Shown here: in pieces, positions 8,298 through 52,566 of the stretch
Numbering within the stretch: the first letter of the stretch is position 1
Layout of the letters: each line of letters begins with the position of its first letter
From: Centroscyllium fabricii
Lineage: Eukaryota
DNA: 64,000 nucleotides
NCBI GenBank assembly: GCA_051313645.2
Contig: JBNRSN020000006.1
Coordinates: 282,906,001 to 282,970,000 of the forward strand
Direction: 5' to 3'
Program-made: the position numbers and the translations under genes
The notes under the pieces: generated by a model
Told to the model about the DNA's origin: nothing
The model's input: the letters and a program-made list of their open reading frames with translations, nothing else
The model's database searches: none

Positions 8298-10960
8298 ATA
8301 GAATCATAGAAGATAGGAGCAGGAGTAGGCCATTCAGCCCTTCGAGCCTGCTCCGCCATTCAATGAGATCATGGCTGATCTTTAGCAAGCTAGTACCCCG
8401 TCCCCGCCTTTTCTCCATAACCTTTAATCCCTTTAGCTTGAAGAAATATATCCAATTCCCTCTTGAATATGTTTAATGAACTGGCCTCCACCGCCCTCTG
8501 TGGCAGGGAATTCCACAGGCCCACCACTCTCTGAGTGAAGAAATTCTTCCTCATGTCTGTCCTAAATGGTTTACCCCTTATCCTTAGACTGTGGCCCCTG
8601 GTTCTGGACTCCCCCGCCATTGGAAACATTCTCTCTGAATCTAACCTGTCCAGACCTTTCAGAATTTTATACGTCTCAATGAGATCACCTCTCAATCTTC
8701 TAAACTCCAACGAGTACAAGCCCAGACTACACAATCTCTCCTCATAGGTCATTCCTGCCATTCCCGGAATCAGCCTGGTGAAACGCCGCTGCACTCCTTC
8801 CATGGCAAGAACATCCTTCCTCAGGCGAGGCGACCAGAACTGTACACAATACTCGAGGTGTGGTCTCACCAGTGCCTTGTACAGCTGCAGTAAGGTATCC
8901 TTATTCCTATACTCGAACCCTCTTGATATGAAGGCCAACATACCATTTGCCTTCCTAACCGCCTGCTGCACCTGCGTGCTCGCCTTCAGCGACAGGTGCA
9001 CAAGAACACCCAGGTCTCTCTGCACCTCCCCATCTCCCAATCTATTGCCATTTAAGTAGTAATCTACCCTCCTGTTTTTGCCCCCAAAGTGGATAACCTC
9101 ACATTTATCCACATTATAGTGCATCTGCCATCTATCTGCCCAGTCCCCCAACTTATCCAAATCTCCCTGTAACTTCCTGACACCCTCTTCAGAGCCTGCT
9201 CCCCCTCCTAGTTTGGTGTCATCCGCGAATTTGGAGATACAGGTTGAGCACCGTTAATCTGTGTCCCGAATAGCCGGCAGCTTCAGTCTGCCGGCACAAA
9301 TTGCCCCAACTGCACTGCGCATGCGCAAAATGGCAGCCCCCATCGTGGCTTCAGCGAATGATCTGCGCATGCGCCGAGCGCATGCGCAGATCATTCAAAA
9401 CAGCTGCGGGTGTTTTGAATGATCTGCGCATGCGTCACCGGACGGTTAGCGCATGCGCAGATAATTCAATACGGCCGCCCGTTATTTTCTCGACAGCTGA
9501 GCCCCGTGACTGAGGCGGACAGTCACTAGGCAACAGCTGTCAGCCTGAGTCCCGCTCGGCGGCAGCAGCAACCCCAAAGGCGATGGAGAGGGACGGCGGA
9601 CCCGGGCCCGATCTGCGCATGCGCGCGCCAGCCAATCGCAATGCTGCGCGCAGCCATTTTGACTGGCGCGCATGCGCAGTGTCCAAACTCGTTCTCCCGG
9701 TTTTTTCCATTTCCCGGCACGGGCCTGGTCCCGCCCGTGCCCGATTAACGGTGCTCAACCTGTATTACATTCAATTCCCTGATCCAGATCATTAATATAT
9801 ATTGTAAACAGCTGAGGTCCCAGGACAGACCCCTGCGGTACTCCACTAGTCACCGGCTGCCACTCAGAAAACGAGCCGTTAATTCCAACTCTCTGTTTTC
9901 TGTCTGCCAACCAGTTCTCTATCCACATCAAAACTTTGCCCCCAATCCCATGAGCCTTAATTTTACATGCTAATCTTTTATGTGGAACCTTATCGAAGGC
10001 TTTCTGGAAGTCAAGGTGCACCACATCTACTGGCTCTCCCCCATCTATTTTCCGAGTTACTTCCTCAAAGAATTCCAATAGATTAGTTAAACATGATTTA
10101 CCTTTTGTAAATCCATGTTGACTCTGTCCGATCTCATCCCTAATTGTCAAATGCTCCGAGATTACATCCTTGATAATGGACTCGAGCATTTTGCCCACTA
10201 CTGATGTAAGGCTTACTGGTCTATAATTCCCTGCTTTCTCTCTGCCCCCCTTTTTAAATAGTGGGGTAACATTAGCCACCCTCCAATCCGTGGGTACTGA
10301 TCCAGAGTCTATCGAGTTCTGGAAAATGATCCTTAAAGCACCCTCTATTTCCAGGGCTACCTCTTTAAGTACCCTAGGATGCAGATTATCAGGCCCTGGG
10401 GATTTGTCGGCCTTCAATCCCTTCAACTTCCCCAAAACCATCTCCCTAGAAATACTGATATCTGTTAGCTCCTCCCTTGCATTAGACCCTATGTTCGCTG
10501 CTATCCCTGGGAGGTTGCTTGTGTCCTCCTTTGTGAAAACAGTACCAAAATATGAATTTAGTTGGTCTGCCATTTCTTTATTCCCCATTATATATTCCCC
10601 TGAATCTGACTGCAAGGGACCGACTTGGGATTTTACCAATCTTTTCCTCTTGATGTACCTATAAAAGCTTTTGCAGTCAGTTTTTATGTTTGCCGCCAGC
10701 TTACATTCGTAATCTATCTTCCCCCTCCTGATTAATCCCTTTGTCTTCCTTTGCTGTATCCTGAACTGCTCCCAATCTTCCGGCCTAGTACTTTTTTTGG
10801 CCAATTGATATGCCCATTTTTTGGATTTAATGTTGTCCCTTATTTCCCTTGTTATCCACGGTTGAGTCACCTTTCTAGGTTTATTCTTATGCCAAACCGG
10901 TATGAACGAGTTCTGTATTTCTTCCATCCTATACTTGAATGCTTGCCATTGTCTATCCAC
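8298..10960 (-). mobile_element. CR1 LINE, 5'-truncated, RT region otherwise open (split by a MITE)
   Basis: ORFs 9755-10960 and 8390-9160 with [50 protein letters not shown] tail. Confidence 0.95.
9240..9762. mobile_element. Tigger4/Zombi (MER46)-like MITE
   Basis: TIR CAGGTTGAGCACCGTTAATC, TA TSD, inserted cleanly in the CR1 RT just before ISKFADD. Confidence 0.9.
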
Positions 10961-11403
10961 ATATGTGCGTTCTTTAAGTCAGTCTCTCTTTCACCTGTCG
11001 AAGGGGCAGAAGCTCCGAAAGCTTGTGATTTAAAATAAAACTGTTGGACTATAATCTGGTGTTGTGTGACTTCTTGCAGAAGTACAGATCAGCCATGATC
11101 TGACTGAATGGCAGAACAGGCTTGAGGGACTAAACGGCCTTAAAAAAAGTGCTGAACGCATTCTACGGTTCTATAAAGAATTTGGGACGACCCTAATTAA
11201 AAGATAACTTTTTGAATTACTTTCATCCCTCTCTGTGCTCTTACAGAACAAAGTTTGTTGAGTGAAAAATATAAAACTTTAAGAAAAGTACCACCAGCAA
11301 CAAAAATCTGACTGAAAACTTTCATTTTCCAGAACTACAGAATGGAAAGACTAAATGTTACAAATGCAATGTCTCTGCAGTAAATTCTAACTAAAATCTA
11401 ATA

Positions 11404-50697: not shown

Positions 50698-52566
50698 TGT
50701 GGGAAAGTGCGAGGTTCTCCACTTTGGAAGGAAAAATTAAAAAGCAAATTATTATTTAAATGGAGAGAGATTACAAAATGCTGCCATTCAGAGGGTCCTG
50801 GGGGTCCTTGTGCATAGAATCATAGAATCCCTACAGTGCAGATAGAGGCCATTTCGGCCCATCGAGCCTGCACCGACACATATCCCACCCTACCCCCGTA
50901 GCCCCACATATTCAATCCCCCTAACACAAAGGGTCAATTTATCATGGCCAATCAACCTAACCCGCACATCTTTGGACTGTGGGAGGAAACCGGAGCACCC
51001 GGAGGAAACCCACGCAGACACGGGGATAATGTGCAAACTCCACACAGATAGTCACCTGAGGCCGGATTTGAACCCGGGTCTCTAGCGCTGTGAGGCAACA
51101 GTGCTAACCACTATGCCACCGTGCCACCCATGAAACACAAAAGGTTAGCATGCAGGTACAGCAAGTAATTAGGAAGGCAAATGGAATGTTGGCCTTTATT
51201 GCAGGGGGGTGGAGTATAAAAGCAGGGAAGTCCTGCTACAACTGTACAGGGTATTGGTGAGCCCACACCTTGAGTATTGCGTACAGTTTTGGTCTCCTTA
51301 TTTAAGGAAGTATATACAGTACAGGTTGTGCACCGAAAATCCGTGACCCGAAACACCGGCAGCTTCAGTCTGCCGGAACAAATTGCCCCGACTGCACTGC
51401 GCATGCGCAAGATGGCAGCCGCGATCGCGGCTTCGGCGAATGATCTGCGCATGCGCCGCCGAACGGCGAGCGCATGCGCAGATCATTCAAAACGGCTGCC
51501 GGGTGTTTTGAATGATCTGCGCATGCATCGCCGGACGGCTAGCACATGCGCAGATCATTCAAAACGGCCGCCAGGCCTTCCGTGGCGGTGATCAATTAAA
51601 AAAATCTTTCGTACACCAAAATTTGTGTAAACAATTTAAACTCATGTCCTCCACTCAAATCCTAGAAAATGTTCCTGTACAGATAAAGAAAAGCAATCAA
51701 ATCACTGGTCTCCAGCTTCATCTCAATGTTTCTTCATCTGAGAAGTCAGTATCTCACACCAATCCCAGCACCGAAACCAGAGTAGTAGTGTGCTCTGAAG
51801 TGATGAATGGCCAATTCGCGATAGGGCTCACTTCAGGTCCAACAATCAAGGGGAAGCGCGCGTTTCCTGGAGCAGCCTGCTGGCCGTCAGCTGAGACTCC
51901 ACAAAGACGTTCGGCCATTTCCAATGTTGTGCGCATGCGCGCGGCCATTTTGCCTAGTGCGCGCATGCGCACTGGCCGACTTCATTCTGCCGGTTTTTTC
52001 ACTTTCCCGGCATGGGCCTGGTCCCGCCCGTGCCGGATTTCCGGTGCGCAACCTGTACTTACATTGGAGGCAGTTCAGAGACGATTCACTAGGTTAATTC
52101 CAGAGATGAGGGGGTTGACTTATGAAGAACGGTTGAGCAAGGTGGGCCTATACTCACTGGAATTTAGAAGAATGAGAGGTGATCTTATTGAAACATATAA
52201 GATACTGAGGGGGCTCAACAAGGTAGATGCAGAGAGGATGTCTCCCCCTCGTGGGGAAATCTAGAACTCGGGGGCATAATTTCAGAATAAAGGGTCGCCC
52301 TTTTAGAACTGAGATGAGGAGGAATTTCTTCTCTCAGGGGGTTATAGATTTGTGTAATTCTCTGCCCCAGAGAGCCGTGGAGGCTGGGTGATTAAATACA
52401 TTTAAGGTGGAGAGAGACAGATATTTGCAAGATAAGGGAGCGAAGGGGTATGGGGAACAGACAGGGAAGTGGCTTTGAGCCCAAGATCAGCCATGATCTT
52501 ATTAAATGGCGGAGCAGGCTCGAGGGGCCAAGTGGCCTATTCCTGCTCCTATTTCTTATGTTCTTA
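50698..52566 (+). mobile_element. CR1 (HER1-type) 3' fragment containing a V-SINE (50812-51128, minus) and a MITE
   Basis: KCEVLHFG..., LEAVQRRFTRLIPEMRGLTYEERL; tail TTCTTATGTTCTTATG. Confidence 0.9.
51322..52055. mobile_element. Tigger4/Zombi-like MITE with unrelated interior
   Basis: TIRs CAGGTTG(T/C)GCACCG, TA flanks. Confidence 0.85.

What the first reader, a model, noticed from the sequence alone, without database searches (positions are those of the whole stretch)
9240..52055. Tigger-like MITE family built as a portable NRF1/YY1 CpG-island mimic
Seen: at least seven related TA-flanked MITEs (9240, 11404, 12036, 18194, 30113, 34314, 51322, plus partial 3520) have interiors packed with GCGCATGCG (seven in 9240-9762 alone) and AA(A/G)ATGGC motifs, and they keep their CpGs. 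Established: TGCGCATGCGCA is the NRF1 site and AA(A/G)ATGGC is the YY1 core, both typical of housekeeping CpG-island promoters; NRF1 binding is methylation sensitive. Inference: the family may recruit these factors to stay open and unmethylated, seeding promoter-like islands through introns. That could also explain why the window's most unstable sequences (minisatellites, GC-shifted tract) lie inside these elements. This is my best candidate for an undescribed system.
Basis: partly seen in the sequence, partly recalled or inferred. Interest (0 to 1): 0.72.

Follow-up and report, generated by a model that had tools for sequence, protein, structure and literature searches.

The report
Motif-rich but methylated Tigger-like mini-transposons
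A family of short jumping-DNA elements with tens of thousands of copies in this genome really is packed with NRF1 and YY1-type promoter motifs, but its CpG sites mutate as fast as those of motif-free relatives, so the copies are likely ordinary methylated insertions rather than portable open promoters.

Summary
Nine TA-flanked elements share one 20-bp terminal repeat, and all 38 CGCATGCG cores of the window lie in family copies; the genome has 54,184 exact end matches. The interior is a ~31-bp NRF1+YY1-type unit multiplied by tandem and inverted duplication. The 'unmethylated island' reading fails its own test. In 120 copies chosen by their ends, CpG transitions run 5.9-fold above non-CpG C/G transitions. 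The copies are ~99% identical, so CpG retention reflects youth. Sister elements with the same ends and no motifs are equally CpG-rich and decay at the same rate. They also show that the motifs are not needed for transposition. The minisatellite and the GC-shifted tract are inherited subfamily traits. What remains: CpGs inside NRF1 cores decay ~30% slower (OR 0.70); an AT-richer control decays 2.5-fold faster; other repeat families carry the same palindrome; the genome holds 229,411 perfect NRF1-type sites. No methylation, chromatin or RNA data were available. The scan noted this family before elsewhere in this genome (e1-9814007).

The parts
9240..9762 (+). Complete MITE, young subfamily A (523 bp, 8-bp deletion), 7 NRF1 cores, 2 YY1-type sites, inserted in a LINE reverse-transcriptase frame
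   Evidence: both differences from the subfamily majority are CpG transitions
11404..11918 (-). Complete MITE, subfamily A, opposite orientation, 7 cores
   Evidence: 2 of 3 substitutions are CpG transitions
12036..14615 (+). MITE of an older module-bearing subfamily with an expanded 26-bp minisatellite
12236..14446 (.). 26-bp minisatellite, 85.3 units; 24 of 30 sister copies carry the same unit at 2.3-20.6 units
18194..18772 (-). Complete MITE, 5 intact cores, 37-bp internal duplication at 18534-18610
30113..30939 (-). MITE with a 23-bp minisatellite (30288-30696), 2 intact cores, CpG o/e 0.66
34314..35229 (+). MITE of subfamily D with captured cargo and a C-rich variable repeat, 8 cores
34576..34790 (.). 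GC-shifted tract: captured inverted pair of a retroelement tail (Penelope-like, class recalled) with 20 T>C and 6 A>G of 30 differences, fixed in subfamily D
51322..52055 (+). Complete MITE, 5 intact cores, 72-bp internal duplication, unrelated middle cargo
38770..39506 (-).
2772..2940 (.). 169-bp palindromic relative with one central core; shares a 19-bp terminal stretch with the autonomous pogo-type family
3523..3699 (+). Partial copy with modules and one decayed end
41690..41820 (+). Partial distant relative with one core and a diverged end
55365..55505 (-). LDLa exon of the host gene (LDLRAD4-like, name recalled); the MITEs lie in the ~245-kb stretch between it and the transmembrane exon

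Best explanation
This is a high-copy, non-autonomous DNA transposon family with pogo/Tigger-like ends whose interior is made of tandem and inverted copies of a ~31-bp unit holding an NRF1 site and a YY1-type site, and whose CpGs mutate like those of its motif-free sisters, so the copies are likely germline-methylated passengers. Shown: TA duplication, short terminal repeats, subfamilies ~99% identical, cargo capture in the middle, module duplication and deletion, neutral-looking decay of the motifs. Inferred: the unit came from a real promoter (the parent transposon's own or a captured host one) and multiplied in the master copies by template switching at its palindromes. The CpG-island look comes from a GC-rich ancestor plus young age. 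NRF1 may bind some copies occasionally, which would explain the ~30% slower CpG decay inside the cores, but it does not open an island around them.
For: CpG transitions 49/3767 in cores and 142/8653 elsewhere, against 64/23323 at non-CpG C/G, in 120 end-selected copies; overall 5.9-fold, CI 4.4-7.8. Motif-free same-end copies: GC 0.64, CpG o/e 1.11, CpG transitions 0.141, ratio to non-CpG substitutions 2.95 after saturation correction (32 copies). Age-matched motif-bearing subfamily: 0.136 outside the motifs, ratio 3.0 (28 copies). No protective halo: 0.020 within 30 bp of a core, 0.009 beyond 60 bp. 33 of 120 copies have no CpG transition against 27.5 expected by Poisson. Non-CpG motif positions are not better conserved than the rest (p 0.12-0.67). 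Tandem arrays of the 31-bp unit in L049 and L060; nested hairpins; a fresh 28-bp module duplication in L288; 21 of 27 deletions touch a core against 11.7 expected. The autonomous pogo-type family has a YY1-type site ~255 bp from its 5' end in 3 of 3 copies examined. Elephant-shark TEs are hypermethylated (PMC5437953, passages).
Against: A young AT-richer control element shows CpG decay 8.7 times its non-CpG clock against 3.4 for this family (ratio 0.39, CI 0.23-0.66). I attribute this to GC content because motif-free sisters are equally low, but partial hypomethylation of the whole GC-rich clan is not excluded. Core CpGs decay slower than other CpGs (OR 0.70, CI 0.55-0.89; 0.72 with one shared variant dropped), and GCGC context alone does not explain it (OR 1.01), although core versus non-core GCGC is not significant (0.76, CI 0.48-1.20). 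Transversions in NRF1 10-mers were lower in young copies (p 0.008) but not in the older subfamily. Clocks of the older subfamilies may be inflated by sub-lineage variants. All methylation evidence is indirect, from mutation. The source promoter and the exact mobilising transposase were not found.
Confidence: 0.62

Rival explanations
1. Selfish selection: masters with more NRF1/YY1 sites transpose better because host factors transiently open or bridge the ends in the germline, though most inserted copies end up methylated.
For: The same palindrome recurs in unrelated repeat families. CGCATGCG occurs 32 times in 600 kb, while 13 of the 15 other CG-NN-NN-CG palindromes occur 5 times or fewer. Another family carries tandem perfect YY1 sites. 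The youngest subfamilies carry 8 cores. Core CpGs decay slower. The host has an NRF1 gene.
Against: Motif-free sisters reached about 7,000 ends against about 3,700 for the 8-core end type. The age-versus-module correlation is confounded by my deeper sampling of motif-rich subfamilies, and terminal-repeat mismatch did not correlate with module number (p 0.23). Deletions outnumber module duplications 21 to 1 in inserted copies.
Confidence: 0.2
2. Pure structural by-product: an alternating purine-pyrimidine palindrome self-amplifies through hairpins, and the match to NRF1 and YY1 has no binding significance.
For: Cores sit in perfect hairpins and attract deletions; hairpin-templated repair could lower their apparent CpG decay.
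Against: Most equivalent palindromes are not amplified. The non-palindromic YY1-type site travels in the same unit. Cores in hairpin arms do not decay significantly slower than other cores (0.011 against 0.015, p 0.25).
Confidence: 0.1
3. One reading: copies recruit NRF1 and YY1, stay open and unmethylated, and act as portable CpG-island promoters that also destabilise their interiors.
For: Motif excess, CpG o/e near 1.1, slower decay than an AT-richer control, slower core decay. Bound NRF1 sites in human spermatogonia are mutation foci (PMC8559717, abstract and passages).
Against: 5-6-fold CpG hypermutability, the same as motif-free sisters; no halo; no large protected class; the unstable tracts are inherited.
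Confidence: 0.06
4. The motifs are transposase-binding subterminal repeats.
For: They lie in symmetric positions about 80-100 bp from each end.
Against: 45 of 55 complete elements with one common end type have no module. 27 of 30 autonomous DDE_1 loci have no core. What the MITE shares with the autonomous ends are CCGG-containing words, not the NRF1 palindrome.
Confidence: 0.02

Closest known systems
pogo-superfamily non-autonomous elements (Tigger family; Gao et al. 2020, PMC7386202, passages; human MER46/Tigger4 likeness recalled)
   Same: TA duplication, terminal repeat under 40 bp, no coding capacity, terminal words shared with a 2.4-kb DDE_1 element of this genome
   Different: Interior built from NRF1/YY1 modules; the exact autonomous partner with the same terminal repeat was not found, so the family within pogo is not fixed
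Plant MITEs that amplify transcription-factor motifs (E2F, bZIP60, PIF3, TCP15/23; Morata et al. 2018, PMC5950925, abstract)
   Same: A MITE spreads one factor's motif to very high genomic numbers
   Different: Vertebrate genome with global methylation; housekeeping NRF1/YY1 motifs; no effect on host genes shown here
Xenopus tropicalis MITEs at open chromatin (hAT-N16, Harbinger-N12A, Kolobok-N2; PMC12676858, passages)
   Same: Vertebrate MITEs with internal palindromes and motif enrichment, including 'NRF' in Harbinger-N12A (the reference cited there concerns the ER sensor of the same name, so it may not be this NRF1)
   Different: There a subset overlaps ATAC peaks; no chromatin data here
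MITEs carrying tandem repeats (Xmix/Xstir, miDNA4; review PMC9659126, passages)
   Same: Minisatellites born inside a MITE ride along and vary in length
   Different: Different units and superfamily
Animal Pack-TIRs (Tan et al. 2021, PMC8277862, abstract)
   Same: TIR elements that capture foreign DNA and then multiply (subfamilies B, C, D)
   Different: Cargo seen here is retroelement pieces and unassigned DNA, not a recognised gene
Self-duplicating germline NRF1 sites (Kaiser et al. 2021, PMC8559717, abstract and passages)
   Same: NRF1 motifs are foci of indels and form clusters
   Different: There insertions that duplicate the motif are the hallmark at bound, open sites; here deletions dominate and CpGs decay

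Membership tests
pogo/Tigger MITE | TA target-site duplication | tested here: met
   9 of 9 complete window copies; 223 of 232 complete elements across loci
pogo/Tigger MITE | Short terminal inverted repeats, no transposase | tested here: met
   20-bp repeat matched at both ends; no transposase match in family elements
pogo/Tigger MITE | High copy number of near-identical elements at unrelated sites | tested here: met
   54,184 end matches; 97-100% identical copies with different flanks
pogo/Tigger MITE | Autonomous pogo element with the same terminal repeat | tested here: inconclusive
   A DDE_1 family with related but different ends was found; only the 30 best loci were read
Tigger family specifically | Transposase phylogeny within pogo | not tested
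   no cognate transposase identified
CpG island | GC above 50% and CpG o/e above 0.6 over 200 bp or more (definition recalled) | tested here: met
   equally met by motif-free sisters
CpG island | Unmethylated in the germline (no CpG hypermutability) | tested here: not met
   5.9-fold CpG transition excess, same as matched sisters; indirect test
CpG island promoter | Open chromatin, factor occupancy, transcription start | not testable with these tools
   one search gave contigs only, and the one run on record as RNA held a 0.03 share
NRF1 binding site | GCGCATGCGC consensus | tested here: met
   6 exact copies in 9240-9762; consensus from PMC10810270; NRF1 gene present
YY1 binding site | AANATGGCG/C core (consensus recalled) | tested here: inconclusive
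   Core present above chance; full consensus-like form in older subfamilies, weaker 3' part in subfamily A; binding untested
ADAR-hyperedited insert (GC-shifted tract) | Clustered, strand-biased A-to-G in a hairpin with ADAR neighbour preference | tested here: inconclusive
   Strand bias 20/45 against 6/50, p 5e-4; neighbour preference not clearly ADAR-like

The most novel reading that the evidence does not exclude
Several unrelated non-autonomous transposon families in this genome have converged on NRF1 and YY1 sites because transient host-factor binding in the germline helps them jump. This has loaded the genome with about 230,000 perfect NRF1 sites that methylation must keep shut, and the 30% slower CpG decay inside the cores is the footprint of that leaky binding.
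Probability: 0.2. Interest if true: 0.7.

Novelty: new variant of a known kind. Interest (0 to 1): 0.33.

Why it matters
As it stands, this is a vertebrate case of MITE-driven motif amplification on a very large scale, and a warning that CpG-island composition in young transposons says little about methylation. The family offers a natural experiment: motif-rich and motif-free subfamilies share ends, GC content and age. That makes the competition between NRF1 binding and methylation, and the question whether non-autonomous elements are selected to carry housekeeping motifs, directly testable once methylation or chromatin data exist.

Tried and rejected
Autonomous partner: the DDE_1 search gave one older family with different ends; tblastn found no transposase beside MITE ends. 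Age against module number: rho 0.54, rejected as confounded by my sampling. Control repeats from pooled loci gave CpG/non-CpG ratios of 1.4-6.6 for unrelated families with 10 or more hits; these are mixed subfamilies, so I used them only as a rough guide. A first set of 30 best-scoring copies was not used for rates because it was selected by similarity. Ongoing GC-biased change inside copies: rejected, the tract is shared by 24 of 27 aligned rows (the middle of that output was cut, the tract blocks were visible). Symmetric GC-biased gene conversion as the cause of the tract is disfavoured by the strand bias. CCAAT and GC boxes are at chance level. Rfam: no match in the window. Sequencing runs: 20 hold part of the element, all as contigs, so nothing was laid. 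The protein atlas gave no answer for the exon. Paper searches for an NRF1/YY1 MITE: 0 hits; nothing on point in the listings; two searches gave the related papers cited. The library lacks most subscription journals, so this is not proof of absence. My recall that the zebrafish TE paper (PMC9341505) names Nrf1 was wrong for its main text: 0 occurrences; its figures and supplements were not seen. Two recalled papers (NRF1 against methylation; YY1 and L1 methylation) were not held and are not used as evidence.
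Full report
What is there. The window comes from a 7.2-Gb vertebrate genome; its repeats look shark-like from recall, and I did not identify it further. About 70% of the window matches repeats. Nine complete elements share a 20-bp terminal inverted repeat and are flanked by TA on both sides: the seven named, plus 2772-2940 and 38770-39506. 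Two partial copies lie at 3523-3699 and 41690-41820. All 38 CGCATGCG cores of the window lie in these 11 stretches. The motif excess is far beyond dinucleotide shuffles for NRF1 (7 against 0.12) and modest for the YY1-type core (2 against 0.08); CCAAT and GC boxes are at chance. GCGCATGCGC is the preferred NRF1 sequence (PMC10810270, passages), and the genome has an NRF1 gene (5 exon matches). The elements lie between an LDLa exon at 55365-55505 and a transmembrane exon about 190 kb left of the window, so they are intronic; the gene name LDLRAD4 is recalled. The window is unusually dense: 9 exact end matches in 64 kb, 4 in the next 200 kb, 0 in 600 kb of spaced samples, though 11 of 60 samples hold an end with up to 4 mismatches.

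Family anatomy. The genome has 54,184 exact end matches, 3,694 ends of the 9240 type and 6,990 of a mostly motif-free type. Copies of the 9240 type fall into subfamilies that share arms but differ in captured middle cargo. The interior unit is about 31 bp, an NRF1 site beside a YY1-type site. It occurs in tandem in L049 and L060 and in nested hairpins in 9240-9762. An autonomous 2.4-kb TA-flanked DDE_1 family has related but different ends, with one 19-bp match at 94.7%. It has no NRF1 core and one YY1-type site near its 5' end in 3 of 3 copies read. TA duplication and short terminal repeats fit the pogo superfamily (PMC7386202, passages); the exact mobiliser was not found.

Not transposase sites. 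Of 70 loci of the second end type, 55 were complete and 45 of these had no module. 27 of 30 autonomous loci have no core. The module is therefore dispensable for movement.

The methylation test. I took 140 loci chosen only by a CpG-tolerant end pattern. 134 had both ends and 120 fell into four subfamilies (48, 30, 17, 25); 6 without a far end and 14 rearranged or foreign copies were left out, as were 12 shared-variant sites, the pattern end and the middle of subfamily D. Copies differ from their majority by about 1%. CpG transitions: 49 of 3767 in cores, 142 of 8653 at other CpGs, 64 of 23323 at non-CpG C/G. That is 5.0-fold (CI 3.4-7.2) and 6.3-fold (4.7-8.4), the signature of germline 5mC by established knowledge. 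The window's own copies agree: 2 of 2 and 2 of 3 substitutions are CpG transitions. Per-copy counts fit Poisson (33 zero copies against 27.5). CpGs within 30 bp of a core decay at 0.020, those beyond 60 bp at 0.009, the reverse of a halo. The best control is the motif-free sister: GC 0.64, CpG o/e 1.11, CpG transitions 0.141, corrected ratio 2.95 (32 copies). An age-matched motif-bearing subfamily gives 0.136 outside the motifs and 3.0 (28 of 30 copies). The island-like composition thus exists without the motifs and decays alike with them. [quoted passage not shown]

Results against this reading. A young AT-richer element (40550-41660; flanks not used in its selection, 30 and 26 copies) has CpG decay 8.7 times its clock against 3.4 here (ratio 0.39, CI 0.23-0.66). 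GC content is my explanation, but partial hypomethylation of the whole GC-rich clan remains possible. Pooled over five subfamilies, core CpGs decay slower than other CpGs (OR 0.70, CI 0.55-0.89, p 0.004; 0.72 with one shared variant dropped). Non-core GCGC sites are not slower (OR 1.01), but core against non-core GCGC is not significant. Lower transversions in NRF1 10-mers (p 0.008) did not repeat in the older subfamily. This is a motif-sized effect, compatible with occasional NRF1 occupancy or with palindrome repair. Non-CpG motif positions show no extra conservation.

Instability. In 121 copies there were 42 gap rows of 3 bp or more. Of 27 deletions in the shared arms, 21 touch a core against 11.7 expected (positions mapped by hand to subfamily A, and some events recur). 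One insertion duplicates a module (L288). Bound NRF1 sites in human spermatogonia attract indels (PMC8559717, abstract and passages), but direct repeats and hairpins suffice here. The 26-bp minisatellite is a subfamily trait: 24 of 30 sisters carry it at 2.3-20.6 units, one more a variant, against 85 in the window. Motif-free elements have ~30-bp arrays too, and MITE-borne tandem repeats are known (PMC9659126, passages). The GC-shifted tract is the same in 24 of 27 aligned subfamily-D rows, so it arose once before amplification. It is an inverted pair of a retroelement tail with 20 T>C of 45 T, 6 A>G of 50 A and 4 other changes (p 5e-4); 5 of the 6 A>G face a T>C across the hairpin. No other listed tail copy shows such a skew. 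Hyperediting of hairpin RNA before capture is my best guess; the neighbour preference is inconclusive.

Wider pattern. YGCGCATGCGCR occurs 229,411 times in the genome against 107 for the reversed pattern, which holds more CpGs and is not a matched control. In 600 kb of spaced samples CGCATGCG occurs 32 times, 14.7-fold over a third-order expectation; 13 of 15 comparable palindromes occur 5 times or fewer, and two GC-only ones 13 and 22 times. Unrelated repeat families carry the core, and another has tandem YY1 sites. This convergence keeps the selfish-selection rival alive.

Comparison and verdict. MITEs that amplify factor motifs are known in plants (PMC5950925, abstract) and Xenopus (PMC12676858, passages); cargo capture is known as Pack-TIRs (PMC8277862, abstract). 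Ten searches found no paper on an NRF1/YY1 MITE. No supplements were read; those of PMC9341505 and PMC12676858 may list such motifs. Earlier scan notes reached a similar reading on other DNA; they are unchecked and not counted as support. Verdict: real motif-rich MITE family, likely methylated passengers; island-mimic function not supported; new variant of a known kind; interest 0.33.

Noticed in passing
window 34576-34790: Captured retroelement-tail hairpin with strongly strand-biased T>C/A>G changes, 5 of 6 A>G facing a T>C; may be an ADAR-hyperedited RNA piece fixed in a DNA-transposon subfamily.
   Followed up: partly
window 40550-41660: Young (~98% identical) 1.1-kb non-coding element with GGGCC-type ends and a near-perfect 493-bp internal palindrome (40852-41344); at least 40 near-identical hits. 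Used as a CpG control.
   Followed up: partly
spaced samples L031-L090 (listing): Another repeat family carries tandem ~33-35-bp units, each with a perfect YY1-type site; it starts with TGT and may be an LTR. Observed only.
   Followed up: no
L071:1281-2039; L035, L053, L073, L086; L049:1193: Unrelated repeat families, one with Harbinger-like ends (class recalled), also carry the NRF1 palindrome; TGACGTCA is 8-fold over expectation in the samples.
   Followed up: partly
subfamily A position 431 and its equivalents in B, C, D: The same A/C transversion polymorphism next to the right-hand YY1-type site recurs in all four subfamilies: a mutation hotspot or exchange between subfamilies.
   Followed up: no
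window 44136-46080: Broken hAT transposase (zf-BED, DUF659, hAT dimerisation) with no close copy among the loci fetched by then.
   Followed up: no
window 25301-26461 and 1266-2324: Harbinger-type DDE_Tnp_4 transposase remnant, and a frame with a weak GIY-YIG match (E 0.004) that is probably Penelope-like.
   Followed up: no
L100, L107 (and window 9240, 51322): Family copies inserted inside other mobile elements: 2 of 30 autonomous pogo-type loci hold them, and two window copies sit in LINEs.
   Followed up: no
G000:C967, several places between 6.98 and 9.29 Mb: Several DDE_1 matches with the same 558-aa open frame and no stop cluster on one contig: a possibly intact or duplicated pogo-type transposase worth checking as mobiliser.
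   Followed up: no
window 20885-21084: A run of 200 N.
   Followed up: no
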